Shown: piece by piece, positions 9,742-56,298 of the stretch
How positions within the stretch are numbered: position 1 is the first letter of the stretch
Layout of the letters: each line of letters opens with the position of its first letter
Source of the DNA: Clostridiales bacterium PH28_bin88
Lineage (GTDB): Bacteria; Bacillota; PH28-bin88
Direction: 5' to 3'
NCBI GenBank assembly: GCA_000987045.1
Contig: LAKY01000049.1
Coordinates: 37,735 to 101,734 of the forward strand
DNA length: 64,000 nucleotides
Notes under the pieces: model-generated
What the model was told of the DNA's origin: nothing
Databases searched by the model: none
The model's input: the letters and a program-made list of their open reading frames with translations, nothing else
Translations under genes and position numbers: made by a program

Positions 9742-9808
9742 CTATCTTTCCTGTTTAATTTTTTCTGCCAACCACAACTTAATCATGGTCTGATAAAGGT
9801 TCCCTTTA
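9742..9808 (-). pseudogene. 3-prime fragment of a BrnA-like antitoxin gene
   Basis: Nucleotide-level copy of the last 65 nt or so of 16155-16484. It is fused at about 9809 to a DUF4258 fragment. Confidence 0.55.
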
Positions 9809-9960
9809 CCTCGGGAGGCAGAGAGAGTTGAACATGTAAAGGTCTTCCCTTCTTTGTTTGACGTAAATAAGGCAGCTTGGTGAATATTTATCTTCAGGAT
9901 ACTCTTCGACAATTTCTCCGGTTAAAATCACTTCTTCTACTTCCAACCTATCGATCGACC
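9809..9960 (-). pseudogene. DUF4258-family toxin fragment (1-nt deletion, 3-prime end missing)
   Basis: Copy of the internal part of 15664-15960 (DRLEVEEVILTGEIVEEYPEDKYSPSCLIY). A frameshift follows, and the C-terminal IVVITIYEPDP part is lost. Confidence 0.65.
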
Positions 9961-9980
9961 TCCGGTGATTGTTTTCAGTG

Positions 9981-10048
9981 CCTGCAAGACACAGGAACCG
10001 TCCCCATGTCTTCTGCCTGCAAGACACCGGGAACCGTCCCCATGTCTT
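9981..10048 (+). repeat. Two tandem units of the GAACCGTCCCCATGTCTT arm motif
   Basis: cctgcaagacacaggaaccgtccccatgtctt followed by ctgcctgcaagacaccgggaaccgtccccatgtctt. Confidence 0.9.
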
Positions 10049-10065
10049 AAGCACAATATGCACAA

Positions 10066-13000: not shown

Positions 13001-13299
13001 TCAGCCCCCACGTCCCTGAAGACAGACGGCACAGTTTCCAGCGTCCAGACCTCGTCCTCCGCACCCAGGGCTTTAATGAGGATCTTGGCGAACTCAGCCC
13101 TGGTCACGTAATTTTTTGGCTGGAAAGCGCCGTTGGTATAGCCGTCGATTACCCCGTGACTGGACAGTAGATCTATATCAAGTTGCGCCCAGTGGCCTTT
13201 GACGTCTTCGAAGGCCAGGGCAGAACCAGCAACGAGAAAAACATAACCTGTCAAACAAAAAGCCAGGAAGAAGCCAACAAATGCAATCCGGCGTTTCAT
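10066..13299 (-). CDS. Cell-wall-anchored subtilisin-like (S8) serine protease with three N-terminal SLH domains
   Basis: Signal peptide, SLH repeats, Asp box IAIIDTGID, His box GHGTQVAGV, Ser box GTSVAAAHTAG, and a long C-terminal beta-rich region. Confidence 0.9.
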   Translation of the reverse strand: MKRRIAFVGFFLAFCLTGYVFLVAGSALAFEDVKGHWAQLDIDLLSSHGVIDGYTNGAFQPKNYVTRAEFAKILIKALGAEDEVWTLETVPSVFRDVGAEHWARGYIQLAYELGIIRGFDDGSFRPGDYIRRMDMATMLVRALRIDGQSGVLPAYTDAAQIPAWAQHDITIASERKLVGGFPDNTFRPRELATRAEAAAMVNRLMDEFGSKYDFYSNLESVDGKSGKIGFTLNGQRVEVNLSAKAKTYLGGQPARLEDAAKDLPRPAFVNLDSEGAATFVQVLTAPLDDAVQLKWSSSAAGFSSEATNYTRKLGEEIVSASGELSAASPGRSLEITKQEAGASKLASLTGADGRGVLIAIIDTGIDPTHPDLQVTSTGSGKVVDFKDYTDEGRVATAGTLPSGHESYTIGGQQYSFKGLYSQSGNFRYGFLEEARAGVDLNGNGSTSDRFLVVVTDPWEAGRYDLVYVDTDGDRNLANEVPLREYRLARGTASFPSTGQATGVSFVISEIKTGAREVVLGFDGNGHGTQVAGVVAANGTVKGVAPGAQLLVIKALDKNGQAAWDRLAEAIRYAAQAGAKVINLSLANYQDMTSGYNSLTQLVDRVSAQNGIVFTVAAGNKGPGLASLATPGNARSAIGVGAYISPAMWLEDYGYRVPRETLWYFSSVGPRQDGMMGPTVVAPGSTVSTSPTWMGTGYSLVEGTSVAAAHTAGVAAMLLDSASRSKLNVSPASIKQAIISGARAIKHFNAVEAGAGALDAAAAWTKLRDLPPTSPVVAYTYNRQLGMGEGLYARDFIPGQLSYNMVNQGNEPITVFWETMVPWMRTVPRQTLLPTGINRRVALEYQVPDEPGVYTGFIKGIVPTTPGMELRLMSTVIRPYLLTPQNDFRQELEGGLEAGQHRRYFFRVPPGTNRATFSLKVPLTQGQYEGRVRFHLISPDGQEVIMSDYVGLGPEGTIVQGYVTKTVENPKPGNWEMVVYSSAALSLFGKDLSSYQLAVQLDEINEKDSLKPRWVIGLLPRELVPGRPTYVTLQVRDPQTLRPVDTVLEIDGRVMEVQRGRVTFPITPSSKDITISIN

Positions 13300-13511
13300 A
13301 CCGATAACCCCATTTCAACCCGTCCTGTCAGAATCAAAGACATCTGTTTAATTCTTCACAAGGCGCTGTTCTCCTCTTACCGGGCCAGGAAAAATATTGG
13401 GAATAACCCCATTTCTTATTAAACGCTAAAGAAAACTCGGCTTGCGCTAAAAAGACTTGCCCATTTATGGGATTAGTCGCGTTGATGCCTCCACAAAGGA
13501 ATAGCCAATTT

Positions 13512-13712
13512 CTAGGTGCGGAAGCCTAGTTGCACAAAAATATATCGGCCTAATCCGCTCTGACCATAAGCATAGTATCTTCCATCCCGGCCTTTGCGAA
13601 TCAGGGGCTGACGATAGAAAACTTCTTCTACCTCTTCTACGCTAATACCTTGGCGCACAGGTTTCCAGTAGTGATTTAATTTCATAAATTCACATTCAAG
13701 AACCGCCCCCAA
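13512..13712 (-). pseudogene. BrnT-like (DUF497-type) toxin, C-terminally truncated copy
   Basis: YWKPVRQGISVEEVEEVFYRQPLIRKGRDGRYYAYGQSGLGRYIFV matches the 16444-16727 copy. It then diverges and lacks the ...RPITARGMTDDER end. Confidence 0.5.
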
Positions 13713-13860
13713 TGTGTTTTTCTAGACAGACAAGATGAAGAGAGCCGAAGCTCTCCTTTGGAAAGGTTTGTGCGGACGATCCCACTACCTGTGCAAGACA
13801 GGAGAACCGTCGCCATGTCTCCCATGTCTCCTGTCTCCCCAAAACTTCCGATTGTCCCCT

Positions 13861-14133
13861 CTAAGAACCGTCTCCTGCGTTAATCGCATAATGGAGCATC
13901 ATTCGAATAAATGCAGTATAACCAAGTCCATGTTTTCTGGCGACCCTCTTAATAGCCACCAAGTCTTCCTTCGGGATCCTAACAGTAATGTGAACCATTT
14001 CCGGCCTTTCAAACTCTATTTGGCTATCTTGCCATTCTAGTTCTTCTGTGTCTATACTGTCAAAGTACTCTGCCATCTCCTCAACACCAGCAAACTTTGG
14101 CATCTGTCTGTTATTGTTTTCTCCTTCCATCAT
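13861..14133 (-). CDS. BrnA/CopG-like RHH antitoxin
   Basis: C-terminus ITVRIPKEDLVAIKRVARKHGLGYTAFIRMMLHYAI resembles BrnA antitoxins (isiRl...K..A...G.gYQt). It lies downstream of a toxin fragment. Confidence 0.55.
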   Translation of the reverse strand: MMEGENNNRQMPKFAGVEEMAEYFDSIDTEELEWQDSQIEFERPEMVHITVRIPKEDLVAIKRVARKHGLGYTAFIRMMLHYAINAGDGS

Positions 14134-14154
14134 AGCGCCTCCTTTCAGAAGTAG

Positions 14155-14282
14155 TCATATCTCTTGCGTAACCGGATAGATGATACCATGACCTTCGTAG
14201 ATGAAAATAAAGGTTATGTACCTGCCTTCACCCGTTTTACCCAGGAAGCGATATGCTTTTTCCTTCGGGTTGCGATCAGCTA
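14155..14282 (-). pseudogene. C-terminal fragment of a BrnT-like toxin, truncated by the 155-nt repeat module
   Basis: KEKAYRFLGKTGEGRYITFIFIYEGHGIIYPVTQEI. The upstream part of the track ORF (14283-14373) is repeat-derived. Confidence 0.5.
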
Positions 14283-14437
14283 ATCCCCATAGTCCTGGCG
14301 CACGCGACTTCGTTCTTCTGGGGCCAATCGAAAATTTTGCCAGCAGGTAGTAGGTATAAGAATTACGGCTCAACAGTCAGAAAACACCTGACTATCGAGC
14401 CTTTTTGACGGGCAAAACTTCCGATTGATCCCTGTAC
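14283..14437 (+). repeat. Copy b of the conserved IS-associated module
   Basis: About 155 nt, near-identical to 8885-9054 and 17857-18030. It includes the hairpin GGCTCAACAGTCAG-aaaacac-CTGACTATCGAGCC plus TTTTT. Confidence 0.9.
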
Positions 14438-14461
14438 GAACCGTCCGCAATAACCCATAGT

Positions 14462-14761
14462 TTAGGAGTGCCAGGCACCATCCGACCCTTTTAAGTAAAT
14501 CGAATCAGGACAGATATCCAGAATTCTACCGTCCAACTCCCAGGTAATTGCTCCGTTTCCTTTGGAAATGAACACACGCTTGAATTTGTTCCAATCCTTT
14601 AAGGGTTCAAAAACTCCATATAGTTTGTCCTTCATATGGTATTTCCTTATTTCGCCATTATTAAATTCCACGACAAGTGTGTAATCGGGCCTGGCTTCAA
14701 CTCTGGTAGCCTTCTTTATTCCGGTTTCGAAATACTTCTTGGCAATAGCAATCTCGTCCAT
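14462..14761 (-). CDS. DUF2442-family protein
   Basis: VEARPDYTLVVEFNNGEIRKYHMKD...FEPLKD...ITWELDGRILDICPDSIY fits the DUF2442 pattern. Confidence 0.7.
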   Translation of the reverse strand: MDEIAIAKKYFETGIKKATRVEARPDYTLVVEFNNGEIRKYHMKDKLYGVFEPLKDWNKFKRVFISKGNGAITWELDGRILDICPDSIYLKGSDGAWHS

Positions 14762-14773
14762 CTTTCTTCACTC

Positions 14774-15034
14774 CTATTTTAGACCTTCAATGGGGAATAA
14801 TTCCTGATTTTTCGAAGCCAAATTCCACTCTTCAAAAAGCTCTTCTTGATGCAACGCCGCCCACCCTAAGACCATCTTTTCAATCTTGTTTGGAAGTTTA
14901 CCATGTAGTATTTCCAGTTCTCTTATATCAACTACCGCTTCTTGACCGGCATACTCAGCATGAAAATGTGGAGGCAAATGGTCTTCCCAGTACATGTAAA
15001 TCTTAATGCCTCTAAACTGGCAGATTATTGGCAA
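14774..15034 (-). CDS. DUF4160-family protein
   Basis: FRGIKIYMYWEDHLPPHFHAEYAGQEAVVDI is the DUF4160 signature. It is paired with a downstream DUF2442 gene, as is usual. Confidence 0.75.
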   Translation of the reverse strand: MPIICQFRGIKIYMYWEDHLPPHFHAEYAGQEAVVDIRELEILHGKLPNKIEKMVLGWAALHQEELFEEWNLASKNQELFPIEGLK

Positions 15035-15175
15035 TGGCTGTTACCTCCTTTTCTTGCCTTATTTTCTATTATACCATAAAAACTAGTGGAAACAACAAAT
15101 CCCTCCACGGCTCTACGGCCGGGGCGCCAAAAGGAAAAGGGATCCGCCCGAAGTCCGAACCCCTTCCCCTGTAAT

Positions 15176-15243
15176 AACCTTCCCCATGTCTTCCTCAATG
15201 TGTTTCCTGCCTGCAAGACAGCGGAACCGTCCCCCTTGTCTCA
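15176..15243 (+). repeat. Solo arm motifs of the GGGGAC-hairpin family
   Basis: ttccccatgtcttcc ... cctgcctgcaagacagcggaaccgtcccccttgtctc. Confidence 0.8.
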
Positions 15244-15400
15244 ATCGCCTCAAACAAGCCATAATCGCCGAAAATGGAACTTGACAAAATGGTGTGATGG
15301 TGTTCTCGCTGGGAGAGGTGTAAGAAATAATCCTGAGGATGGCCTCGAAACTATTGATTTAACAAGGGGTTGTATTTTTCGGCAATGGCTCTAAGGAGAA

Positions 15401-15658
15401 TTAAGGAGTACTAGGCACCGTCCCTCGTTTTTTCTGGCTATAATCGAAAACCGGTACCATAACCTTTTTCACTGGCTTATATTCCTGCTTCGCAAACTTC
15501 AGCAACATGTCCGTAACATCACAAGAATAAGTTCTCTCCCCGCATTTAGTGCAAACATCAGCAGGTACATTTTCCACAAAAATATACTTTCCGTCATCTT
15601 CATAACTAAATGTTACAGTTCGCTTTTCGGTTTTACCTCCGCAGAAAACACACTGCAT
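15401..15658 (-). CDS. YgiT/MqsA-type zinc-finger protein (putative antitoxin)
   Basis: CVFCGG...VENVPADVCTKCGERTY is a four-Cys YgiT-type finger. Confidence 0.7.
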   Translation of the reverse strand: MQCVFCGGKTEKRTVTFSYEDDGKYIFVENVPADVCTKCGERTYSCDVTDMLLKFAKQEYKPVKKVMVPVFDYSQKKRGTVPSTP

Positions 15659-15663
15659 AGCAA

Positions 15664-15960
15664 TTACCTCCTGATTTTATAGTCAATCCACTGTCCAGGA
15701 TCAGGTTCATAAATTGTAATAACTACTATCCTGGGAGGCAGAGAGAGTTGAACATGTAAAGGTCTTCCCTTCTTTGTTTGACCGTAAATAAGGCAGCTTG
15801 GTGAATACTTATCTTCAGGATACTCTTCGACAATTTCTCCGGTCAAAATCACTTCTTCTACTTCCAACCTATCGACCTGTCCCCATGTCTCTATAATGGT
15901 TCTCCCGAACCGTTGACATGACATGACTAGATCAACGGAATTCCATTGTATTAAAAACAT
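15664..15960 (-). CDS. DUF4258-family protein (putative toxin); N-terminus partly repeat-derived
   Basis: LEVEEVILTGEIVEEYPEDKYSPSCLIYGQTKKGRPLHVQLSLPPRIVVITIYEPDPGQW. The codons ETWGQV upstream are the gagacatggggaca repeat motif, so the true start is uncertain. Confidence 0.6.
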   Translation of the reverse strand: MFLIQWNSVDLVMSCQRFGRTIIETWGQVDRLEVEEVILTGEIVEEYPEDKYSPSCLIYGQTKKGRPLHVQLSLPPRIVVITIYEPDPGQWIDYKIRR

Positions 15961-16154
15961 CAGACTCTTTCAATTCACATTGAAGAAACATCCCCAATAT
16001 GCTGTTATTTTCAATCCAGTAACTGTTTTGAATGATAAATGAAGATAATTTCTATAATTCCCGTTTTTTTTAACCGGTAGACTATCCGAAATGGGTGAAG
16101 TAAGACATGGGAACTGTCCCCTTGTCTCCCTCCCAAAGTATTCTGTCTTTCCCC

Positions 16155-16484
16155 CTATCTTTCCTGCTTAATTTTCTCTGCCAACCACATCTTGATCATG
16201 GTCTGATAAGGGATCCCTTTACCCTCGGCGATTTTTTTTATTTGATTTAGATGCTTACTGTTGACCCGTATGTTTATTCTTGTAGTAGTGGGCCTTTCCC
16301 CTTCCATCTCGAAATCTACCGGCTCCAGTTGATTCCAATATGGTGCTGTGGAATGCGTTTCCCAATATTCGGCCGCCTGCTCGTCATCATGAATTCGGGG
16401 CATCTCAGGCACATTTTTCTTTTCTGGAAAGTTTTCTCCTTTTCTACCCACGTTGATGCTCCCTCCTGTAGAGTTTTCTTTCAT
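16155..16484 (-). CDS. BrnA/CopG-like RHH antitoxin
   Basis: INIRVNSKHLNQIKKIAEGKGIPYQTMIKMWLAEKI matches the BrnA C-terminal pattern. Confidence 0.6.
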   Translation of the reverse strand: MKENSTGGSINVGRKGENFPEKKNVPEMPRIHDDEQAAEYWETHSTAPYWNQLEPVDFEMEGERPTTTRINIRVNSKHLNQIKKIAEGKGIPYQTMIKMWLAEKIKQER

Positions 16485-16727
16485 CGTCAGTCATTCCCCT
16501 GGCAGTGATTGGTCTGATTATTCCTCTACCCTTGTACACAAATACCACAAAAATATATCGCCCTAATCCGCTCTGACCATAAGCATAGTACTATATCTTT
16601 CATCACGTCCTTTGCGAATCATGGGCTGATGATAGAAAACTTCTTCTGCCTCTTCTACGCTAATACCATGGCGTACAGGTTTCCAGTAGTTTGCTTCGTC
16701 CCATTTAAACGTCCTGCCCTTCAACAT
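16444..16727 (-). pseudogene. BrnT-like toxin with an internal frameshift (about 5-nt insertion)
   Basis: MLKGRTFKWDEANYWKPVRHGISVEEAEEVFYHQPMIRKGRDERY, then a stop. The shifted frame continues YAYGQSGLGRYIFVVFVYKGRGIIRPITARGMTDDERKLYRR. It overlaps the brnA-like start. Confidence 0.6.
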
Positions 16728-16986
16728 CAATTACCCCAACACCGCTGTACGTACATTGTACCCACGCATAAGACATTTGTCAACAACCAGCAGAAAGACA
16801 CTTCTTTGAAGTTATGAAGTTGTCTGTGACTTAATTTCGAAATTCACATTCAAGTACCGTCCCCATGTCTCCTCACACTCAACAATTTCTTTATTTTATT
16901 GGGATATGGATATGGAAAAGCTTCAGCGAAAGTACTATAATATAATAAGTAGAAGGGTTGACCCTGATTGAGGGGAATGACTTTTC

Positions 16987-17427
16987 GTGAGAATCTATCT
17001 TGATGCTTGCTGTCTCAACCGCCCTTTTGACGATCAGACCCAAGACCGAATCAGGTTGGAATCGGAGGCGGTTCTTTCAATTTTGAACCGTTGCCAGATG
17101 GGAGAATGGCAATTAATAGGCAGCGAAGCCCTAGATTATGAAATATTCAAGATACCGGATGATGACCGTAAGCAAAAAGTATTGATCCTCGCTGGTCTTG
17201 TCCAGTCGAAGGTATTCCTTGACGTAAAGGTGGTGCAACAGGCCAACCTGTTGCAGGAGGCCGGGTTAGCGGCTTTAGACGCCCTTCACATATCATGTGC
17301 CGAAAAAGGTGGGGCCAACGCCTTGCTTACTACTGATGACAGGTTGGTCCGACAGGCTGCGCGAACGAAAGCTCTAATCAAAATCACGGTGGCAAATCCG
17401 ATTAGCTGGCTAATGGAGGTGTTTTGA
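16987..17427 (+). CDS. PIN-domain nuclease (146 aa, GTG start)
   Basis: MRIYLDACCLNRPFDD... and ...LDALHISCAEKGGANALLTTDDRL show PIN-like acidic residues. Confidence 0.7.
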   Translation: MRIYLDACCLNRPFDDQTQDRIRLESEAVLSILNRCQMGEWQLIGSEALDYEIFKIPDDDRKQKVLILAGLVQSKVFLDVKVVQQANLLQEAGLAALDALHISCAEKGGANALLTTDDRLVRQAARTKALIKITVANPISWLMEVF

Positions 17428-17634
17428 ATGATACAAGATCAAGCCGCAACTCCCAACCAAATCAGGAAAGCTGGGATAGATGCCTTATCTAAAACCCTCG
17501 GTCCCGTAGGTATGACACGGTTTTTACAGCAGTTTGACCCAGGAAAAGGTGATTATACTAAAGAAAGAGAGCAGTGGCTTGGCAGAATAAGCATTGAACA
17601 GGTCGCCAAAGAGGTTCAGCGAGAGAAGGAGTAA
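17428..17634 (+). CDS. 68-aa partner of the PIN nuclease (putative antitoxin encoded downstream)
   Basis: The ATG follows the PIN stop with no gap. It is near-identical to 8030-8239. Confidence 0.55.
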   Translation: MIQDQAATPNQIRKAGIDALSKTLGPVGMTRFLQQFDPGKGDYTKEREQWLGRISIEQVAKEVQREKE

Positions 17635-17642
17635 AAATAAAT

Positions 17643-17680
17643 GGCCTTACCCTCAATTCAATGGGAAGGCCTTTTTTTTT
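17643..17680 (+). terminator. Rho-independent terminator
   Basis: GGCCTTACCC...GGGAAGGCC stem followed by T9. Confidence 0.75.
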
Positions 17681-17810
17681 GATAAGGTGGACCTTTTCGT
17701 CTTAGAGGTACCAGACCCTCCCGCCATTTACCAGGGTGTTCTTTTGTCGAATTTTTGGATTATCAGGTACCATTCTTTACGCGCAAGGGGAACCGTCCCC
17801 ATGTCTTCAC

Positions 17811-18030
17811 ATCAAGGAAATTGGCGAGTATATCCCGCCAAGTTACGCCAAAGGGAAAAGATTGAATCCCCATAGTCCTGGCGCACGCGACTTCGTTCTT
17901 CTGGGCCAATCGAAAATTTTGCCAGCAGGTAGTAAGTACAAGAATTACGGCTCAACAGTCAGTAAACACCTGACTATTGAGCCTTTTTGACGGGCAAAAC
18001 TTCCGATTGATCCCTGTAAGAACCGTCCCC
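17811..18030 (+). repeat. Copy c of the IS-associated module (includes tnpA codons IKEIGEY...)
   Basis: Near-identical to 8839-9054. It starts immediately after a gaaccgtccccatgtcttcac motif. Hairpin plus T5 at 17949-17988. Confidence 0.9.
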
Positions 18031-18791
18031 AGTGTCTCATGCACGGTCTGCCGTCCCCATGTCTTTGTAGACAGGAGAACCGTCCCCTTGTCTCCCAACT
18101 GTATCCATATCTTTCTAGATACTTCATCAATACCTTCCAGGCTGCCGTAAAAATCGTATTTTGTTCCATAAATATGCATCATTCGGTTGACCATAGCTAC
18201 GGCCTCAGCTCTAGTGGCTAGATGACGAGGGCGAAAGGTTTTGTCGGGGAACCCCCCTACCAGCTTTCTTTCAGAGGCAATCGCGATGCTTTGCTGTGCC
18301 CAAGCCGGAATTTGTTCTAAGTCTGCGTAAGCTGGTAGTACGGAGCGTTCTTCTTCAATCCGCAGGGCCCTCACCAGCATAACGGCCATGTCCATCCGGC
18401 GAATGTTTTCATTCGGCCGAAAGGTTCCATCGTCAAACCCCCTGATCATGCCTAGTTCGTAAGCGAGTTGAATATAACCCCTTGCCCAATGCTCGGCTCC
18501 CACGTCCCCAAAAACGGAAGGTACCGTTTCTAGAGCCCAGACCTCGTCCTCCATACCAAGCGCCTTAATTAGGATTTTGGCGAACTCTGCGCGAGTTATG
18601 TTATTTTTAGGTAGGAAAGTACCATTAGGATAACCGTCAACTACCCCCTGACTAGAAAGCAAGTCTATATCAAGCTGAGCCCAATGACCCTTTACGTCAT
18701 CAAAGGCAAGGGCAGCACCAGCAATACTAAACGTAGCACCAAGCAAACATAAAGAAAGGAAAAGACCAAGAAATATGAGTCTACGAGTCAT
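17952..18791 (-). pseudogene. N-terminal (signal peptide plus three SLH domains) fragment of an SLH/S8 protease paralogue
   Basis: Aligns to residues 1-225 or so of the 10066-13299 protein. Homology ends near 18095, where the reading frame runs into GGGGAC-family repeats. Confidence 0.7.
18017..18100 (+). repeat. Cluster of three GAACCGTCCCC-type arm motifs
   Basis: gaaccgtccccagtgtctc, ctgccgtccccatgtctt, gagaaccgtccccttgtctcc. Confidence 0.85.
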
Positions 18792-18895
18792 AATAAGCTC
18801 AACCCCGTCTCAAATAGTCTCAGCAAATCAAAATACATCTGTTTAATTCTTCATCAGACACTTTTCTCCTTTTATCAGGCTGGGAAAAATATTGA

Positions 18896-22054: not shown

Positions 22055-22783
22055 TCATTTTTTCAAGGATTCTTTGAGGACGAGCAAAGCGAACTTGGGG
22101 AGGGCCAGCATGCGGCCGGCGCGCCTGGGTTCTTTTAAGAGGCGGTAGAGCCACTCCAGTTTAAGCCTCTGGAAGGCCTCGGGGGCGCGTTTGGCCTTGC
22201 CCGCCAGCACGTCCAGGGTGCCGCCGATGCCGATGAGGACCGGGACCTTAAGTTGGTCCATGTGCTCCCGGATCCAGTACTCCTGCTTGGGCGCCCCCAG
22301 GGCGACCAGGAGGATGTCGGGTTTTGTTTTTTGTATACTGCTCAACAGGCCTTTTTGCCCCTGGGCGTCCAGGTAGCCGTGGGAGGTGCCCGCGATCTGG
22401 ATGCCGGGGTATTCCTCCACCATTTTACGGGCGGCTTCCTCGGCGACGCCGGGGGCGGCGCCGTAGAGGAAGATGCGCCAGCCCTTGATGGCCGCGGTGG
22501 GGAGGATGGCCTGCACCAGGTCGATGCCGGTCACCCGCTCGGGTACGGGGGTACCCAGTTTTCCGGCGGCCCACACCACCCCGGCCCCGTCGGGGGTAAC
22601 CAGGTGGGCGGAGTTGATGATATCCTTTAAAGCGGGCTCGTGCTGGGCCCGATAAATGATTTCGGCGTTAAGGGTGATGATGTGGTGGGGGGTACCTTCC
22701 TTGATATACTCCTCCACCTTTTCCAGGGTACCTTGCATGTCCACGGGGTCAACCAGGGTCCCCAGGACGGATACTTTCTTCAT
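22055..22783 (-). CDS. tagA: WecG/TagA/CpsF family (GT26) glycosyltransferase
   Basis: VTPDGAGVVWAAGKLG, LLVALGAPKQEYWI, LEWLYRLLKEPRR. I prefer the start MKKVSVLG at 22783. Confidence 0.85.
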   Translation of the reverse strand: MKKVSVLGTLVDPVDMQGTLEKVEEYIKEGTPHHIITLNAEIIYRAQHEPALKDIINSAHLVTPDGAGVVWAAGKLGTPVPERVTGIDLVQAILPTAAIKGWRIFLYGAAPGVAEEAARKMVEEYPGIQIAGTSHGYLDAQGQKGLLSSIQKTKPDILLVALGAPKQEYWIREHMDQLKVPVLIGIGGTLDVLAGKAKRAPEAFQRLKLEWLYRLLKEPRRAGRMLALPKFALLVLKESLKK

Positions 22784-22813
22784 TCCCACTTCTAACCTCT
22801 CACTTCTCACTTC
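22784..22813. repeat. Tandem heptamers (minus strand GAGAAGT x3-4) filling the LCP-tagA spacer
   Basis: cccacttctaacctctcacttctcacttct. Confidence 0.8.
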
Positions 22814-23794
22814 TCAATTGGCTGCCATCTTGTTGACTATTTCTTTCGTCTTTTCGTCGGAAGGGACCCAGTAGCTGATGCCCTTGATGTACTCGGGGTT
22901 GCCGGGCAGGGTGGCGGTTTCTATCTTGGCGGCGCCGGCGTCCTTGAACACCTTGGCCAGGCCAAGCATTTCTTTGAAGTTCAGGTCGGTGCGCACCTGG
23001 GCCTGCACTTCCTTGATCAGTTCGGGCAGCTTCCACACGGTGCTGATGCTTAAAGCCTGGTCCGCCAGGGCAACCAGGAACTTCTGCTGGCGTTTGATGC
23101 GGGTGGTATCGTCCCCGTCATTCCTGTAGCGGACGTACTGCAGGGCCTTATCCCCGTCCAGGCGCTGGAGGCCGGGGTAGAGGTCGATGCCCTCAAGGGC
23201 GTACTCCATGCGCTTCTCCACCTCTATTTCCACTCCGCCCAGGATGTCGATCACCGCGGCAAAGCCCTGGAAATTGACCTCCACAGACCGCTTGACGTCT
23301 ATGTCCAGGAAGTCTTCCACCGTCTGGGCCAAGAGACTTGGCCCGCCATAGGCGTGGGCGTGGCCGATCTTCTCCTTGCTGGACCTGCCGGGGATCTTGA
23401 CATAGGTGTCCCGGGGGATGGAGAGGACGCTGATCCTGGATTCCTTGTCGTCGATAAAGGCCACCATGATGGTGTCCGCCCGGGAAGGCTCGTTGGCGCG
23501 CTGGTCGACCCCTATTAAAAGGATGCCGCCGGGCCGCTTTTCTTCGGCGGGCGTGCCGGTTTTATCCGGTTTTTGGGAATCATCGGGATCGTTAATTACG
23601 CTGCCGATAAAGTTGTCCGCCAGCTGGTACCCCACGTAGGCGAAGGCGAAAAAGGCAAGCAGGATTAACGCTAAAGCAGGTAAAATATAAGAAGACTTTC
23701 TCCGCTTCTTTTTTCTCAGTTGCGGACGCCGCGGGGAATCGCCCCAGAATTCGTCGTATTCGTAATGCCTGTAGTCTTTGGGCACGGGATACAC
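22814..23794 (-). CDS. LytR-CpsA-Psr (LCP) family cell-wall polymer transferase
   Basis: TM anchor, then ILLIGVDQRANEPSRADTIMVAFIDDKESRISVLSIPRDTYV. GTG start with a GGGGGG RBS. Confidence 0.85.
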   Translation of the reverse strand: MYPVPKDYRHYEYDEFWGDSPRRPQLRKKKRRKSSYILPALALILLAFFAFAYVGYQLADNFIGSVINDPDDSQKPDKTGTPAEEKRPGGILLIGVDQRANEPSRADTIMVAFIDDKESRISVLSIPRDTYVKIPGRSSKEKIGHAHAYGGPSLLAQTVEDFLDIDVKRSVEVNFQGFAAVIDILGGVEIEVEKRMEYALEGIDLYPGLQRLDGDKALQYVRYRNDGDDTTRIKRQQKFLVALADQALSISTVWKLPELIKEVQAQVRTDLNFKEMLGLAKVFKDAGAAKIETATLPGNPEYIKGISYWVPSDEKTKEIVNKMAAN

Positions 23795-23833: not shown

Positions 23834-24003
23834 GGAGACATGGGGACTGGAGACATGGGCGAGACATGGGGACGGTTCCATCGTCTTCCCGATTAAGGAA
23901 TGGGGACACACCTGCTGAAGCCCGGGCTGGTCTTTGGGGACAGGAATGTCCCCAACTATGCTTCGCTACGCTCCGGGGACAATCGAACCGTCCCCATGTC
24001 TCC
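23834..24003 (+). repeat. GGGGAC-hairpin palindromic element, full form with extra left-arm units
   Basis: gagacatgggg x3, then GGGGACGGTTCCATCG...central module...GGGGACAATCGAACCGTCCCCATGTCTCC. Confidence 0.9.
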
Positions 24004-24093
24004 TTCAGTATAATGATAGCCGGTTACGTTTTATAGTAGACGTTTGATGAGACCGGTTTGTTCCCGGAACGCATAAATTTTTTCTCTGGGAGT

Positions 24094-24708
24094 TTATGGG
24101 TAGATGCTGGCGGTGCGGGTGTTATTGTCCCACTCCACCCTTGCTCCCAGGAGTTCGCTGATGGCCCTCAAGGGGACCATGGTACGGTTGTTGACCAGCT
24201 GGGGCGGGGAGTCCAGCTGCACTTTCCTGCCGTCCACGGTGGCGGTCGGGCTGCCGATCCGCATGGTGACCGTCCGGCCGCCCAGGCGGTAGATGACGCT
24301 CCGGGTGCTGTTCTCCCAGTCCACCTGGGCCCCGAGGGCCTCCCCCAGGAAACGGAAGGGGAGCATGGTCCGCCCGCTGTCACTCAAGTACGGGGGGGCA
24401 TCCAGGGTTTTGGGCTTGTTGCCGATATAGGCGACGTTGTTTCCTATTGTCAAGGTGACCCGCAGCTCAAGGCGGGCCTTTAACGGGGCGACCCGCTTCT
24501 CCAGTTCCACCACTTTGGCACTCAGGTCCTCCACCTGCTGGACCAGGGGGCTTAACTGCTCGGCCAGGTATAGCTGCAAGAACGCCCTGGAGACAAAGGG
24601 GTCGGCCTCGCTGCCGGCAGGGGCCGCCAGCACCGCCCGCCCTAATATGTAGGAAAGGGAAAATAGGAGAACGGCCGCTGAAGTTAGCCGTATAAGACGC
24701 GATGTCAT
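24094..24708 (-). CDS. Secreted protein with copper-amine-oxidase N-terminal-like (stalk) domain
   Basis: TMLPFRFLGEALGAQVDWENSTRSVIY and RTMVPLRAISELLGARVEWDNNTRTASI. I prefer the start MTSRLIRL at 24708 (GGAGG-N9). Confidence 0.7.
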   Translation of the reverse strand: MTSRLIRLTSAAVLLFSLSYILGRAVLAAPAGSEADPFVSRAFLQLYLAEQLSPLVQQVEDLSAKVVELEKRVAPLKARLELRVTLTIGNNVAYIGNKPKTLDAPPYLSDSGRTMLPFRFLGEALGAQVDWENSTRSVIYRLGGRTVTMRIGSPTATVDGRKVQLDSPPQLVNNRTMVPLRAISELLGARVEWDNNTRTASIYP

Positions 24709-24742
24709 CGAAAGAGTCCTCCGCACTCACGCGCACGCTACG

Positions 24743-24877
24743 CCACGGGGACGGTTCCATCGTCTCCCCGATTAAGGAATGGGGACACACCTGCTGAAGC
24801 CCGGGCTGGTCTTTTGGGACAGGAATGTCCCCAACTATGCTTCGCTTCGCTCCGGGGACAATCGAACCGTCCCCATG
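24743..24877 (+). repeat. GGGGAC-hairpin palindromic element, full about 135-bp form
   Basis: CCACGGGGACGGTTCCATCGTCTCCCCGATTAAGGAATGGGGACAC...TGTCCCC...GGGGACAATCGAACCGTCCCCATGG. Near-identical to 49778-49913. Confidence 0.95.
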
Positions 24878-25238
24878 GCTCCGCTCGCATACTCGCGCAT
24901 ACTTTAGATTAGATTTCCTGTTAGCTGCCGCTATATAGGTTTCGACAGCAGGCGGGGTTTTCCTGTCCGCTCCGATGGGAAAATCCATGGTACATCAGGA
25001 AAAAATCAGCTTAAAAAAATTTTTAAAAAAATTAAAATTGGAGAAGGATTCTTAGCAAGCAAGTGGAATATAATAAACCGAGAGAAGTTTGGTAGTGTAG
25101 AGATTTGTACTAGTTTTCACTTAGTCAGCGCTACCGTCACAGTAACAACTTTTTATTTATCCGTGGTTTGTGCTTGTGTTCACATGTTTTAACAGTCTTA
25201 CCGAAGTCTTACTTAAATCGAAAGGGGGCGTTGGAGAG

Positions 25239-25406
25239 ATGAAAGATCCGTTCGCAGCACTCAGAAAAGAGCGTAACTACCTGCTTAACCAGTGGATCAA
25301 CGCCAGAGACCATGAGAAAGCCACGATCCTGGTCAAAATCATGGACATTGACGAACAGTTGGAAGCGGCGAAGCCGAAGATCCGGAAACGCAAGCAGGTG
25401 AGCTAG
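25239..25406 (+). CDS. Small hypothetical protein (55 aa, helical, basic C-terminus)
   Basis: AAAGGGGG RBS, then ATG at 25239 (MKDPFAALRKERNYLLNQWINARDHEK...). A strong terminator follows. Confidence 0.45.
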   Translation: MKDPFAALRKERNYLLNQWINARDHEKATILVKIMDIDEQLEAAKPKIRKRKQVS

Positions 25407-25410
25407 AAGT

Positions 25411-25434
25411 TAGTGACTAGTGACTGGTGACTGG
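25411..25434. repeat. Tandem heptamers GTGACTA/GTGACTG
   Basis: tagtgactagtgactggtgactgg, between convergent gene ends. Confidence 0.85.
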
Positions 25435-26403
25435 CAAAGGACGCGAAAACGCGTCCTTTTCTCTTTTGGTAAGGTCGTAGATGATGCCGCCGAGCCAGGT
25501 GGAGGGAATCAGGAGCACCGGTTCCCCCGCCTGCAAAGTAACGGTCCCCCAGGCGACCACCTTGGGGATGGCGGCGGTGTCCACCTCCCGGGCAATGCGG
25601 TAATGGAGCCAGAGGTTTTCCGGGTTGATGGCGAAGTCGGTCTCCAGGTAGCGGTGAAAGGCCAGCACCAGCGCGGGCAGGTGGATAAAGTACACCCGGG
25701 GGCGGGTGAGTTCGGCCAGGAGGGCTCCCAGGATGCGGTCGTCCCGGGGGCTGATCTCCATGGTAAAAAGGTTTTCCAGCTCCACCTCCTGGCCGTCCAC
25801 CACGATCGGGTTGACAAACTTTTTGACCTCGGACAGGACCCGGCGGTCGATGCGGACGTAGTACGCAATGTCCACTGAAAGTGCTTCCTCCAACAGCGGC
25901 ACGAGGGCTTTTGGTCCGGCTTCCCGGAAAACGCTTTCCAGGGGGGACGTCCGGTCAAGGGCCGTCCTGACCGGGAAAAAGACCGCCCCGGAACGGAAGT
26001 CTTCCTTATAATTGATGCTGTACACCGCGGTCATGAGCAGTTGGTCGCCGTCGGCCCCCAGGAAGAGGACGTTCAGGTTGTCGGTTTCCCGGTTCCTTAG
26101 CGGCAGGTTTGGCGCGAGTTGGGCCGGTTGTTTCACCGGCAGGGGGGTAGCATTGTCTGGCCGGGCTGAAGTGACGGGGTTAATGGGAGCAGGCGCCGGG
26201 GGTGCCGCCACCTCCGGGGGTTCCGGGACGGTGGACGGCGAAGACTCCGGTTCGGTAAATTTGTATTCCGCCAGGGTGATCGTACCGGCAGGCGGGTATG
26301 AAGGGGGAGCGGCGTGTTTCGTTTGAAACGACAGGGGTTCCGGACCTGCCAGGGTGATGACAAGAAACAGGCTGAAAGAAATAAGCCATCCGGCTTTTTT
26401 CAT
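25417..26403 (-). CDS. Secreted/membrane-anchored protein with a divergent LCP-like region
   Basis: Start MKKAGWLISFSLFLVITLAG (GGGAGG RBS), a Pro-rich linker, then NVLFLGADGDQLLMTAVYSINYKEDFRSGAVFFPVRT, which resembles the LCP core. The 3-prime end reads through the heptamer and terminator sequence, so the stop is uncertain. Confidence 0.5.
   Translation of the reverse strand: MKKAGWLISFSLFLVITLAGPEPLSFQTKHAAPPSYPPAGTITLAEYKFTEPESSPSTVPEPPEVAAPPAPAPINPVTSARPDNATPLPVKQPAQLAPNLPLRNRETDNLNVLFLGADGDQLLMTAVYSINYKEDFRSGAVFFPVRTALDRTSPLESVFREAGPKALVPLLEEALSVDIAYYVRIDRRVLSEVKKFVNPIVVDGQEVELENLFTMEISPRDDRILGALLAELTRPRVYFIHLPALVLAFHRYLETDFAINPENLWLHYRIAREVDTAAIPKVVAWGTVTLQAGEPVLLIPSTWLGGIIYDLTKREKDAFSRPLPVTSH
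25436..25468 (+). terminator. Rho-independent terminator
   Basis: AAAGGACGCG-aaaa-CGCGTCCTTT followed by TCTCTTTTGG. Confidence 0.75.
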
Positions 26404-26442
26404 GATATCCTCCCACTCTACGTCATGGGGACTACGCCAAGG

Positions 26443-26595
26443 GAGACACGGGGACGGTTCCATCGGGAGAGACACGGGGACGGTTCCATCGTCTTCCCTT
26501 CGGCCCTTCGCTACGCTTCGGGGACGCTCGAACCGTCCCCATGTCTCCTCGAACCGTCCCCATGTCTCCTCGGGACGATCGAACCGTCCCCATGG
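26443..26595 (+). repeat. GGGGAC-hairpin element, short form (2 left arms, no central module, 3 right arms)
   Basis: gagacacggggacggttccatcg x2 ... cgaaccgtccccatgtctcct x2, then cgaaccgtccccatgg. Confidence 0.9.
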
Positions 26596-27420: not shown

Positions 27421-27870
27421 TTAACGGATGAACATGGGTATCAAGATGCCGGCAAAGCCGACTACCAGCGCCACAAAAATCCCGATGATCCAGCGGCTGA
27501 TTGAATGGATCTCTTGATGCAAGGAGTCCACTTTCTGATCGACTGTTTTAATTTCGCCGCGGAGCTTCGCTTCTACGATATCAATTTTGTTGCTTAAGGA
27601 TTTTTCTACGTTGTCAATCCGGTTGCTTAAGGATTTTTCTACGTTATCAATTCTGTTGCTCAAGGATGTTTCAACGTTATCAGTTCTGTTGCCTAGAGAA
27701 TCGATCCTTGCACTTAATTTTTCGTCAAATGCCTTGATTTCGCTACGGAGATTCGCTTCCATGGTGTCCATACGGTGGAGCAGGTATCCCAGGAAATCGA
27801 AGCCCCGTGGAAACCTGGGAAAATCGTCGTCAGTCCCGGCGGCTATTTCCTTTCTGGTCTCATCCGGCAT
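27421..27870 (-). CDS. Coiled-coil protein with 11-residue tandem repeats and a C-terminal TM anchor (DUF1640-like)
   Basis: GGGAGGGAGG RBS, then MPDETRKE. Repeats SNRIDNVEKSL x3-4. C-terminal IIGIFVALVVGFAGILIPMFI. Confidence 0.6.
   Translation of the reverse strand: MPDETRKEIAAGTDDDFPRFPRGFDFLGYLLHRMDTMEANLRSEIKAFDEKLSARIDSLGNRTDNVETSLSNRIDNVEKSLSNRIDNVEKSLSNKIDIVEAKLRGEIKTVDQKVDSLHQEIHSISRWIIGIFVALVVGFAGILIPMFIR
27589..27707. repeat. 33-bp in-frame tandem repeat (3.6 units)
   Basis: gttgcttaaggatttttctacgttgtcaatccg repeated with a few substitutions. Confidence 0.9.
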
Positions 27871-27987
27871 TGCCAGGGCACCTCCCTCCCTTACGCCCAT
27901 CATAACATGTTTGAACCCTTGCTACAATGTTAGACGATCTTCCTGGTGGCGGCCACCAGGCCGTTGTTCTGGAGCACCAGCTATTAT

Positions 27988-29840: not shown

Positions 29841-29880
29841 GCCATGCTACGCTTCGGGGACGCTCGAACCGTCCCCATGG
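29841..29880 (+). repeat. Solo right-arm hairpin of the GGGGAC family
   Basis: gctacgcttcGGGGACgctcgaaccGTCCCCatgg, 44 nt upstream of the mbl start. Confidence 0.85.
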
Positions 29881-30040
29881 CTCCCGTTGGAAATTTGAAA
29901 TGAGAAGATGAAGAAAATGAGAAAAGTCCCGAGAAAGCGTTCCGATTGCAGGCTGTGGGTGCTTGTCTACCGTAAGCCTCTCCTGAACGCTCTAGGACTT
30001 TTCTATTTCGGCAGAAGGGAGGGAAATTCCTCCAAAATTT

Positions 30041-32237: not shown

Positions 32238-32539
32238 GCCAGGGACCTCCTATTTGTACAGGCCTTTTGGGACATGTTTATGCGCCGGAGAGAGCAGTTA
32301 TGCTCTATTTCCAATTTTTAGGGGTGATAAAAAGTTCAGCAGGCAGGGATTGGTTTCCTGCCTGCTGCTTAAGTTTATTAACCAAACATCTGTTCCCGTT
32401 TTTTATTGTAGCCCGTAGCATATTATGGTAAGATGTAGGCAAGGCTTGCAGGTGCCCCGCAGTATAATGACAGCAACAAATAGCTCCTCCTCTCATCCCG
32501 TGGGTTGGCTGAGGGACAGGTAACGAGAGGAGGAAGCCT

Positions 32540-32741: not shown

Positions 32742-32983
32742 CCTTATTATTCCTCTTCGTCAATATTCCAAAACTCCGGCTGGACGCATATACACTCACA
32801 ATCTATGCGTGTCTTATAACGTGCCGAACTTTTGTTCGCTTTCATCTTGTCCACGATTGCGTACTATAGTAAAATAAAGGCAGGGCCTGCAGGTGCCCCG
32901 CAGCATAGCTACATCAAAAGAAAAACCCTCCTCTCTATCATGGGTTGGCTGAGTGAACAGCAGGTAACGAGAGGAGGGGGCGG

Positions 32984-49751: not shown

Positions 49752-49777
49752 CCCCCTTTGCTCAGAATTCAGCTACG

Positions 49778-49913
49778 CCATGGGGACGGTTCCATCGTCT
49801 CCCCGATTAAGGAATGGGGACACACCTGCTGAAGCCCGGGCTGGTCTTTTGGGACAGGAATGTCCCCAACTAAGCTTCGCTACGTTTCGGGGACGCTCGA
49901 ACCGTCCCCATGG
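49778..49913 (+). repeat. GGGGAC-hairpin palindromic element, full form, inside the operon
   Basis: CCATGGGGACGGTTCCATCG...GGGGACGCTCGAACCGTCCCCATGG. Near-identical to 24743-24877. Confidence 0.95.
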
Positions 49914-49945
49914 CTCCGCTTACTTTTACCAAACCGTTCTCTCAT

Positions 49946-56269: not shown

Positions 56270-56298
56270 CCATGGGGACGCTCGAACCGTCCCCATGG
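56270..56298. repeat. Minimal GGGGAC hairpin (10-bp stem)
   Basis: CCATGGGGAC-gctcgaacc-GTCCCCATGG. Confidence 0.95.

What the first reader, a model, noticed from the sequence alone, without database searches (positions are those of the whole stretch)
23834..26595. Modular palindromic element family built on a GGGGAC-N9-GTCCCC hairpin (REP/BIME- or MITE-like)
Full copies of about 135 bp lie at 23861-24003, 24743-24877 and 49778-49913. They have inverted termini CCATGGGGACGGTTC...GAACCGTCCCCATGG. Each terminus is itself a hairpin (GGGGAC-aatcgaacc-GTCCCC). A structured central module carries GGGGACA...TGTCCCC. Shorter forms also exist. One has arms only, with 2 left and 3 right units (26443-26595). 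There is a solo arm at 29841-29880 and a minimal 10-bp-stem hairpin at 56270-56298. Arm motifs are scattered through the TA island. All full copies share one orientation and lie 30-80 nt upstream of a minus-strand start codon. Arm copy number varies like the modules of BIMEs. Hairpin-ended repeats are the substrates of Y1 (IS200/IS605 or RAYT) transposases. An IS200-type tnpA remnant lies in the same window, and its right end finishes with the same ...GAACCGTCCCC motif. I am not aware of a name for this family.
Basis: partly seen in the sequence, partly recalled or inferred. Interest (0 to 1): 0.7.

Follow-up and report, generated by a model that had tools for sequence, protein, structure and literature searches.

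The report
Modular GGGGAC-hairpin intergenic repeat family
The window carries real copies of an apparently undescribed family of small, non-coding, hairpin-forming repeats that have spread through the spaces between genes in many anaerobic Firmicutes; it is a new example of a known kind of selfish bacterial repeat, and the proposed link to an IS200-type transposase is not supported.

Summary
There are three 149-bp copies (91-95% identical), an arms-only cluster, a solo arm, a minimal hairpin and about 12 solo arm motifs, all in one orientation and far above chance. The family is not confined to the window. A 65-76-nt core (two inverted GGGGAC arms, REPIN-like) is about 97% identical across genomes of different orders, including Desulfoscipio, Pelotomaculum, Desulfotruncus and the host, Clostridiales bacterium PH28_bin88. 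In many genomes this core lies inside a ~150-nt MITE with GTACTACAGCGTAAT inverted ends; one filled/empty site pair shows a TA duplication. The central module (GGGGACACACC...GGAATGTCCCC) is itself a widespread stand-alone or tandem hairpin repeat, and it sits in the core in two different ways. The closest relatives of the host have no copies: their atpD-atpC spacer is 13-17 nt against 157 nt here. Cores without the outer inverted ends are co-oriented with flanking genes 19:2, and the transcribed strand folds better. No Rfam family, tRNA, terminator, phage or plasmid matches. No Y1 transposase was found in about 1.5 Mb of flanking DNA. The "IS200 right end" is a separate 176-nt palindrome. Verdict: a new member of the REP/REPIN/BOX/MITE kind; the mobilising enzyme is unknown.

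The parts
23834..23864 (+). Three partial, tandem left-arm starts (GAGACATGGG) in front of copy 1
23858..24006 (+). Full composite copy 1: left arm H1 23868-23890, central hairpin H2 23902-23953, right-arm hairpin H3 23975-23995. It lies between the Cu_amine_oxidN1 gene and the LytR gene, both on the minus strand.
24737..24885 (+). Full composite copy 2: H1 24747-24769, H2 24781-24832, H3 24854-24874. As RNA the minus strand folds at -84.6 kcal/mol and the plus strand at -69.1.
26443..26595 (+). Arms-only cluster with 2 left arms (26447, 26473) and 3 right arms (26530, 26551, 26581). Positions 26473-26548 are the 76-nt core found at 94-100% identity in other genera. The cluster folds as a doubly nested hairpin (-103.8 kcal/mol on the minus strand).
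29841..29884 (+). Solo right-arm hairpin (H3 29856-29876) with the GCTACGCTTC lead-in, 44 nt upstream of the mreB start
49772..49920 (+). Full composite copy 3: H1 49782-49804, H2 49816-49867, H3 49889-49909. It lies between the DAO-family oxidoreductase gene and the aldehyde:ferredoxin oxidoreductase gene.
56270..56298 (+). Minimal hairpin CCATGGGGAC-GCTCGAACC-GTCCCCATGG inside the 157-nt atpD-atpC spacer. The same spacer is 13-17 nt in the nearest relatives.
9979..10048 (+). Two solo right arms in a 36-nt tandem repeat, 22 nt after the stop codon of the SLH/subtilase gene. The motif sits in the loop of an AAGACA..TGTCTT hairpin.
13804..13817 (+). Solo right-arm motif (1 mismatch)
15224..15237 (+). 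Solo right-arm motif
16854..16867 (+). Solo right-arm motif (1 mismatch)
17790..17803 (+). Solo right arm that directly abuts the truncated second tnpA remnant (about codon 36)
18020..18090 (+). Two more right-arm motifs (18020, 18077). The first is also the end of the 176-nt palindrome.

Best explanation
These are copies of a non-coding, non-autonomous, modular palindromic repeat family. It is the same kind of thing as REP/REPIN/BIME in proteobacteria and BOX in streptococci. It is built from hairpin modules that all use a GGGGAC/GTCCCC stem.

The basic unit is a 65-76-nt core. It has two inverted arms, GGGGACGGTTC... and ...GAACCGTCCCC. Each arm can fold on its own, or the two can pair with each other into a 16-bp stem (REPIN-like).

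The window's 149-bp copies are that core plus a second hairpin module, H2 (GGGGACACACC...GGAATGTCCCC), inserted between the arms. H2 appears to be independently mobile.

In other genomes the core is carried inside a ~150-nt MITE with GTACTACAGCGTAAT inverted ends that duplicates TA on insertion.

The elements have invaded short spacers between co-directional housekeeping genes in the host lineage. They are copied in trans by an enzyme that was not identified.

My preferred mechanism for the copies that lack the outer inverted ends, such as those in this window, is sequence-specific and strand-specific copying of the folded single strand by an HUH/Y1-like enzyme (about 0.3). The alternative is that they derive from the DDE-mobilised MITE (about 0.3).

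Once inserted, the element is co-transcribed. It forms a very stable RNA hairpin without a U-tract, and this probably acts as a processing or stability element rather than a terminator.
For: Shown:
- The repeat is far above chance.
- The three copies share sharp borders and have unrelated flanks.
- The neighbouring genes are unrelated housekeeping genes.
- The family is present in about 70 loci of Bacillota genomes, including two isolates.
- The core is 94-100% identical to window 26473-26548. Core identity is 97.9% within genomes and 96.7% between genomes.
- A 143-nt composite, 95% identical, lies in an unrelated organism and context (L094).
- The filled/empty pair L077/L159 shows inverted ends and a TA duplication.
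- The host's closest relatives have no copies in 10-22 kb of the syntenic atp region, and their atpD-atpC spacer is 1-17 nt against 157 nt here.
- H2 occurs alone or in tandem arrays in at least 120 metagenome loci, with compensatory changes in its distal stem.
- H2 sits in the core in two different positions and orientations: one in the window, L043 and L094, the other in L104 and L059.
- The long stem keeps pairing through double changes at 5 outer pairs.
- Orientation against flanking genes is 41:6 overall, and 19:2 for cores without the outer inverted ends.
- The transcribed strand folds better in 45 of 47 copies.
- There is no T-tract terminator.

Inferred: mobilisation in trans, and any effect at the RNA level.
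Against: - No mobilising enzyme was found. There is no Y1-like ORF and no recurrent ORF in about 1.5 Mb of flanks.
- No target-site duplication or empty site was obtained for the type of copy that is actually in the window.
- The host genome outside the window could not be read, so the genome-wide copy number there is unknown.
- The strand asymmetry of pairing rests largely on one inherited U.G pair: 38:9 G.U to A.C cells with it, but 15:9 without it.
- The orientation bias cannot be separated from replication direction.
- The cross-order near-identity, which includes the loop bases, is unusual for vertically inherited REPs. It could instead mean a host-selected function.
Confidence: 0.75

Rival explanations
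1. The elements are substrates of a Y1 (IS200/IS605 or RAYT) transposase, related to the tnpA remnant in this window, and are copied as single-strand hairpins without a target duplication.
For: - The arms are hairpins, and the core has REPIN architecture.
- No target-site duplication is visible at the three full copies.
- Cores without the outer inverted ends are oriented 19:2. This is the pattern expected if the active strand must be the lagging-strand template (own knowledge of IS608/ISDra2).
- Arm halves are tandemly duplicated.
- The 11-mer is kept even when unpaired, which suggests sequence-specific recognition.
- Group 1 RAYTs exist in Clostridia (PMC5581495).
Against: - No Y1-like ORF lies in about 1.5 Mb around 200 loci.
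- The tnpA remnant's homologue in L086-88 lacks the motif.
- The 'right end' is a separate 176-nt palindrome, and an arm truncates the second remnant.
- The two ends are inverted repeats of each other, unlike IS200/IS605 ends.
- The only transposition footprint seen has inverted ends plus a TA duplication.
Confidence: 0.25
2. The window copies are internal remains of the TA-duplicating DDE-type MITE (inverted ends GTACTACAGCGTAAT). They lost their ends by symmetric deletion and are no longer mobile. The copies multiplied before the loss, or by segmental duplication.
For: - The core and its GCTACGCCA / ATGGCTCCGCT flanks are the inner part of the MITE.
- Forms with one inverted end and truncated forms exist.
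- The right flank of copy 3 still resembles the MITE's inner right part.
- Collapsed versions such as L084:1235 occur.
Against: - Three window copies and L094 share the same sharp borders without the outer inverted ends, have unrelated flanks, and are 91-95% identical.
- There is no outer inverted end anywhere near them in 64 kb.
- Cores without the outer ends are much more strongly oriented (19:2) than intact MITEs (7:3).
Confidence: 0.25
3. It is primarily a host-selected cis-acting RNA module, for example an RNase III processing site, a 3'-end protective hairpin or a device for translational coupling. On this view its sequence is conserved by function and mobility is secondary.
For: - The element is in sense orientation in 87% of tandem-gene contexts.
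- The transcribed strand folds better.
- The loops as well as the stems are conserved between orders.
- It lies inside operons such as atp.
- It often lies tens of nt after a stop codon.
- Compensatory changes are present.
Against: - The neighbouring genes have nothing in common.
- The close relatives manage without it at the same sites.
- Copy architecture varies widely (arms only, half arms, tandem halves).
- There is no Rfam match.
- Without one inherited pair, the G.U asymmetry is weak.
Confidence: 0.15
4. It is a DNA-level protein-binding site (operator, nucleoid protein or gyrase site) or a DNA-uptake-type signal based on the 11-mer GGGGACGGTTC.
For: - The 11-mer is kept as a solo copy, in one orientation, without its partner.
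- The half-sites are spaced like an operator for a dimeric protein.
Against: - All copies are intergenic and none lies in coding DNA.
- The conserved unit is 65-149 nt, not 11 nt.
- The motif is absent from the close relatives.
- The sites sit after genes and inside operons rather than at promoters.
Confidence: 0.05

Closest known systems
REP / REPIN / BIME of Enterobacteria and Pseudomonas (mobilised by RAYT Y1 transposases)
   Same: - It is a GC-rich extragenic hairpin.
- Two inverted hairpins form a longer hairpin (REPIN).
- Clusters have variable numbers of units (BIME).
- No target duplication is seen at the copies without the outer inverted ends.
- It lies in transcribed spacers and after stop codons.
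   Different: - No RAYT was found.
- The same sequence is shared by different orders (96.7% between genomes), whereas REPs are lineage-specific and vertically inherited.
- The host is a Gram-positive anaerobe.
- The core is also packaged in a MITE with inverted ends and a TA duplication.
BOX elements of Streptococcus (boxA-boxB(n)-boxC), as described in PMC3049150
   Same: - It occurs in Firmicutes.
- It is a composite of modules, with an inner module that can be absent or repeated.
- The outer modules pair with each other.
- It is predicted to form a strong RNA fold when co-transcribed.
   Different: - There is no sequence similarity.
- The modules here all share one stem sequence (GGGGAC).
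- The inner module (H2) is itself a widespread stand-alone repeat.
TA-duplicating MITEs that are co-transcribed: Correia elements (Neisseria), ERIC (enterobacteria), RUP (IS630-Spn1-related)
   Same: - The long form has 15-20-bp inverted ends, a TA duplication, a size of about 150 nt and no ORF.
- It folds as a long hairpin.
- RNase III or RNase E processing has been reported for Correia and ERIC elements (PMC3049150, background section).
   Different: - The window's copies lack the outer inverted ends.
- No parent IS was identified.
- The element is GC-rich.
IS200/IS605-derived palindrome-associated elements (PATEs)
   Same: The ends form hairpins, there is no visible target duplication, and there is a strand bias.
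   Different: - The ends are inverted repeats of each other.
- No cognate IS carries these ends.
- The tnpA remnant in the window is unrelated to the family, as far as could be tested.

Membership tests
REPIN-RAYT system | [quoted passage not shown] | tested here: met
   The core is H1 + spacer + H3. The long-range 16-bp stem is predicted in both single-sequence and alignment folds.
REPIN-RAYT system | A single-copy Y1 (PF01797) RAYT gene flanked by the repeats | tested here: inconclusive
   None was found in about 1.5 Mb of flanks from about 200 loci. Whole genomes could not be scanned.
REPIN-RAYT system | A repeat sequence specific to a lineage and inherited vertically | tested here: not met
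   The core is 96.7% identical between genomes of different orders and 97.9% within genomes. It is absent from the host's nearest relatives.
REPIN-RAYT system | A conserved tetranucleotide (GTAG type) at the foot of the hairpin | tested here: inconclusive
   GTAG follows the core in the sense strand (..GUGGCGUAGCGG) in most MITE-borne copies. It is missing at copy 1 and at the minimal hairpin.
IS200/IS605-derived PATE | Ends identical to those of a resident IS200/IS605 element | tested here: not met
   The tnpA remnant's homologue lacks the motif. The terminal stretch is a separate 176-nt palindrome.
IS200/IS605-derived PATE | Left and right ends that are different hairpins, not inverted repeats of each other | tested here: not met
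   The arms are 16-19-bp inverted repeats of each other.
MITE (DDE type, TA-duplicating) | Terminal inverted repeats | tested here: met
   This holds for the long form only: GTACTACAGCGTAAT...ATTACGCTGTAGTAC in 42 hits (two per palindromic copy, one on each strand). The window copies have no outer inverted ends.
MITE (DDE type, TA-duplicating) | Target-site duplication shown by a filled and an empty site | tested here: met
   L077 (filled) against L159 (empty) shows TA (or TTA) duplicated. This is one pair, and it is the long form only.
MITE (DDE type, TA-duplicating) | A parent IS with matching inverted ends | not testable with these tools
No pair of inverted ends encloses an ORF in the loci held.
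BIME/BOX-type mosaic repeat | Distinct modules combined in variable number and order | tested here: met
   The observed combinations are: core alone, core + H2, 2 left + 3 right arms, solo H3, minimal hairpin, and half-arm tandems.
Rfam RNA families / tRNA | A match to a curated covariance model or a tRNA fold | tested here: not met
   No hit reached the gathering score in the window or in 30 loci, and only chance-level hits appeared at E up to 5. ARAGORN found nothing.
Intrinsic terminator | A GC-rich hairpin followed by a T-tract | tested here: not met
   None of the elements is called as a terminator. The sense-strand sequences have no U-run.

The most novel reading that the evidence does not exclude
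The 65-76-nt core may be the working part of a REPIN-like system in Gram-positive anaerobes. On this reading an as yet unidentified hairpin- and sequence-specific enzyme (an HUH/Y1-like enzyme or something new), shared horizontally between orders, copies the core strand-specifically. That would explain the near-identity of the loops as well as the stems, the 19:2 orientation, the absence of target duplication, and the solo arms that are kept without a partner. The TA-MITE shell and the H2 hairpins would then be separate mobile layers nested on it.
Probability: 0.2. Interest if true: 0.65.

Novelty: new member of a known kind. Interest (0 to 1): 0.45.

Why it matters
Dispersed palindromic repeats are well studied in proteobacteria and streptococci. 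They have hardly been described in the anaerobic Clostridia-type lineages that dominate digesters and subsurface communities.

This family breaks MAG assemblies: many copies lie at contig ends. It lengthens operon spacers, for example in the atp operon. It places hairpins of -25 to -100 kcal/mol into mRNAs.

Its near-identity across orders, and its three nested layers (H2 hairpin, REPIN-like core, TA-MITE shell), make it a convenient marker for horizontal spread of small mobile DNA. Two cultured hosts, Desulfoscipio geothermicus DSM 3669 and Desulfotruncus alcoholivorax DSM 16058, make it experimentally tractable.

It does not by itself open a new biological question.

Tried and rejected
- **tRNA or T-loop mimic.** The loop GGUUCGAGC resembles a T-loop. 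ARAGORN finds nothing, and the register of the closing pair does not fit.
- **Known RNA family.** There is no Rfam hit.
- **Intrinsic terminator.** There is no T-tract.
- **Phage or plasmid origin.** The single viral hit is a chance match in GC-rich coding DNA. Nothing was found in plasmids or phages.
- **Y1 partner nearby.** A regex search and a profile search of all six-frame ORFs gave nothing.
- **Any recurrent neighbouring ORF.** None was found. The neighbours look like ordinary housekeeping genes.
- **Integron attC array in the TA island.** By inspection there are no R''/R' core sites, and the island is built by segmental duplication.
- **Uptake sequence or operator.** The motif occurs only inside intergenic repeats.
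- **Reading the host genome beyond the window.** This failed.
- **Literature search for the exact sequences.** It returned only unrelated primer hits.
- **Separating transcription from replication as the cause of the orientation bias.** This failed because the exceptions lie in loci that are wholly inverted.
- **G.U against A.C asymmetry.** It is weak once one inherited pair is removed.
Full report
**Observation**

- GGGGAC-N9-GTCCCC occurs 6 times (0.01 expected).
- The 11-mer GAACCGTCCCC occurs 19 times (0.09 expected).
- CAYGGGGACGGTTC with up to 2 mismatches occurs 26 times (1.45 expected).

Three copies of 149 nt lie at 23858-24006, 24737-24885 and 49772-49920. They are 91-95% identical, and similarity ends sharply at GCTACGCCA... 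and ...ATGGCTCCGCT. Each copy consists of three modules:
- a left arm H1, GGGGACGGTTCCATCGTCT(C/T)CCC;
- a central hairpin H2, GGGGACACACC-30 nt-GGAATGTCCCC;
- a right-arm hairpin H3, GGGGAC-N2-TCGAACC-GTCCCC.

Other forms in the window:
- The cluster at 26443-26595 has two left arms and three right arms. It folds as a doubly nested hairpin.
- 29856-29876 is a solo H3.
- About 12 solo right arms lie in the toxin-antitoxin island at 8-18.5 kb, all on the same strand.

All six H3 hairpins lie between minus-strand genes of unrelated function: LytR, a Cu_amine_oxidN1 protein, MreB, a DAO-type oxidoreductase, an aldehyde:ferredoxin oxidoreductase, and atpD/atpC.

**Host and relatives**

AtpD of the window is 100% identical to the protein of Clostridiales bacterium PH28_bin88. 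The nearest named relative is Zhaonella formicivorans at 89% (Neomoorellales).

I read the syntenic atp regions of relatives: a 91% relative (L211-213), a more distant homologue found in the same search (L210; identity not reported) and Zhaonella (L214), 10-22 kb each. They contain no copy of any family motif. Their atpD-atpC spacer is 17, 1 and 13 nt, against 157 nt in the window. The elements are therefore insertions gained in the host lineage.

**Distribution elsewhere**

An exact scan for the H3 hairpin in one genome per species returned 85 loci. About 70 of them are clearly the same family, and nearly all of these are in Bacillota. They include Desulfoscipio geothermicus DSM 3669, Desulfotruncus alcoholivorax DSM 16058, Pelotomaculum, Desulfocucumis, Peptococcaceae, Dethiobacter and Syntrophomonadaceae MAGs, plus one Limnocylindrales MAG. 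The rest are chance palindromes in unrelated GC-rich genomes.

The commonest form is a 76-nt core equal to window 26473-26548, at 94-100% identity. Over the 65-nt core, identity is 97.9% within genomes and 96.7% between genomes. These figures carry some ascertainment bias, because the scan required an exact hairpin.

A 143-nt composite that is 95% identical to the window's copies lies in a metagenome contig that shares no gene with the window (L094).

**Three nested layers**

1. *The MITE shell.* In many genomes the core lies inside a ~150-nt element with inverted ends GTACTACAGCGTAAT...ATTACGCTGTAGTAC flanked by TA (42 full-length hits, two per palindromic copy (one on each strand)). One orthologous pair shows the empty site: L159 reads ...ATCATTAGACA..., and L077 has the element inserted with TA (or TTA) on both sides. 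This is the footprint of a DDE-type MITE such as the IS630/Tc1-derived ones.

2. *The core.* It has REPIN architecture. The two arms are inverted copies of each other and pair into a 16-bp stem. The five outermost pairs keep pairing through double changes: GCCAUG/CGUGGC, AGCUUG/CAAGCU, GACUGG/CCAGUC, GCAAUG/CAUUGC.

3. *H2.* It is a repeat in its own right.
   - The two or three pairs beyond the fixed stem co-vary: CCTC/GAGG, CCGC/GCGG, CCTT/AAGG, CCTG/CAGG.
   - It occupies the core in two different ways. In the window, L094 and L043 it sits between H1 and the spacer, in the same orientation. In L104 and L059 it sits inside the H3 loop, in the opposite orientation. H2 therefore appears to have entered the core independently more than once.

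The window contains no outer inverted end next to any of its copies.

**Strand and orientation**

As RNA, the reverse complement of the form written above folds better:
- -84.6 against -69.1 kcal/mol for copy 2;
- -73.9 against -61.3 kcal/mol for the MITE consensus;
- the reverse complement is the better strand in 45 of 47 unique cores.

The better-folding strand is the transcribed strand in the window. Across loci, the same strand is co-oriented with both flanking ORFs in 41 cases against 6. With correct gene calls all six window hairpins fit this pattern. The bias is 19:2 for cores without the outer inverted ends and 7:3 for intact MITEs.

Two cautions apply:
- The pairing asymmetry is 38 G.U to 9 A.C cells, but 23 of the G.U cells come from one inherited pair. 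Without that pair it is 15:9.
- The exceptions lie in loci that are entirely of the other orientation, so transcription and replication direction cannot be told apart.

H2 alone shows no orientation bias (37:25). No element is followed by a T-tract.

**The Y1 idea**

The tnpA remnant is real: Y1_Tnp, profile positions 1-39 of 121, E=1e-7. Several results argue against a link to the family:
- The stretch that ends in GAACCGTCCC is a separate 176-nt palindrome. It is present three times in the window and once in L009, and it folds at -71 kcal/mol on the minus strand.
- A family arm directly abuts, and truncates, the second remnant at 17790.
- The homologous remnant in another genome has no GGGGAC motif within 20 kb.
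- A profile of IS200 N-termini and an HUH/Tyr regex found no Y1-like ORF in about 1.5 Mb around the element loci.
- No ORF recurs next to the elements.

Group 1 RAYTs do occur in Clostridia (PMC5581495). A single-copy enzyme elsewhere in these genomes is therefore not excluded.

**What it is not**

There is no Rfam family at the gathering score in the window or in 30 related loci, and no tRNA. There is no phage or plasmid match. A literature search for the sequences themselves found nothing relevant.

**Interpretation**

What is shown:
- It is a dispersed, modular, palindromic repeat family.
- It was inserted into otherwise short spacers of housekeeping operons.
- It is shared by distant Bacillota.
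- One layer behaves as a TA-duplicating MITE.
- Another layer (H2) has inserted independently.

What is inferred:
- The copies without the outer inverted ends, as in this window, are copied in trans by an enzyme that recognises the GGGGACGGTTC arm. The reasons are that the arm is kept even where its partner is missing and it sits in a loop, that loops are as conserved as stems, that no target duplication is visible, and that the orientation is 19:2.
- Among mechanisms for this copy type, I put about 0.3 on a strand-specific HUH/Y1-like mechanism, about 0.3 on derivation from the DDE-mobilised MITE, and the rest on something else.
- The co-transcribed hairpin has no U-tract and a perfect stem of 16 bp or more. 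It more likely acts as a processing or stability element, as reported for Correia, ERIC and BOX elements (PMC3049150), than as a terminator.

**Comparison and novelty**

In how it works and how it is built, the family is closest to REPIN/BIME and to BOX. Its long form is closest to the TA-duplicating MITEs (Correia, ERIC, RUP).

It fails two REPIN-RAYT membership criteria that could be tested. It is not lineage-specific, and no RAYT was found, although the second test is incomplete. It also fails the IS200/IS605 PATE criteria.

It is best filed as a new family within a known kind of element. The unusual points are the cross-order near-identity and the three nested layers. Interest is moderate.

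Noticed in passing
window 22783-22816, 25413-25434, 49947-49964, 56217-56263, 56334-56349, 61272-61298, 61767-61808, 61976-62007: Short tandem runs of heptamers (TTCTCAC, GTGACTG, CTGACTC, GTCAGAA, CACTTCC, GTCAGGA, AGTGACT, ACTAGTC) lie in intergenic spacers, often directly beside the GGGGAC elements. Similar 6-7-mer runs flank elements in other genomes (L007, L033, L042, L055, L106, L117, L180, L206, L208). They recall the cyanobacterial STRR heptamer repeats.
   Followed up: partly
window 8888-9055, 14282-14449, 17860-18035; L009:117-288: A second palindromic repeat family of about 176 nt. It has a long imperfect hairpin (-71 kcal/mol on the minus strand, -53 on the plus strand, z=-6.6), an inner hairpin that shows compensatory changes in L009, and no Rfam hit. 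One copy follows the IS200 tnpA remnant, and the family ends in GAACCGTCCC.
   Followed up: partly
window 8734-8870 and 17810-17835; L086:10001-10249: The N-terminal ~45 codons of an IS200-type tnpA remain as a remnant. All 115 database relatives returned were also short 'partial' proteins under 85 aa, from many Firmicutes, truncated near the same point. This may be an effect of the search tool or a recurrent truncation.
   Followed up: no
window 7800-18800: An island of type II toxin-antitoxin and related small genes (MazEF, CopG-type, PIN, DUF4160/DUF2442, MqsA-like/DUF4258). It is interleaved with three paralogous SLH/subtilase-type genes and built by segmental duplications of 76-98% identity.
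   Followed up: partly
window about 35600-55700: About 20 kb lies between atpC and the spoIIT (PF08680)-murA pair. These genes are adjacent in Zhaonella and in the 91% relative. The extra stretch carries a peptide ABC transporter, a sigma-54 activator, a solute symporter, an aldehyde:ferredoxin oxidoreductase and DAO-type and ferredoxin-type genes, and it contains full copy 3.
   Followed up: no
metagenome loci L092, L100, L111, L126, L164, L169, L197; L021, L112: H2 hairpins form head-to-tail arrays (period 57-65, 2-3 units), and half-hairpins form 21-nt tandem runs. In 10 of 37 co-oriented cases the upstream ORF ends 6-12 nt before the hairpin, and by eye the conserved left flank often reads T(A/G)A-GG(A/T)A(A/T), which holds a stop codon.
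   Followed up: partly
window 27571-27692: A 33-nt tandem repeat of 3.7 copies (86% matches) lies inside the ORF at 27421-27903 (minus strand). That ORF has only weak coiled-coil-like Pfam hits.
   Followed up: no
window 32399-32494 and 32840-32935: Two 96-nt direct repeats (71% identical) share the block GGCA(A/G)GGC(T/C)TGCAGGTGCCCCGCAG(T/C)ATA and lie upstream of spoIID. They may be a duplicated promoter or leader (family D20).
   Followed up: no
L210:10001-12226: An atpD homologue from a metagenome is called as a 741-aa protein with duplicated N-terminal and nucleotide-binding domains. This may be an assembly or gene-calling oddity.
   Followed up: no
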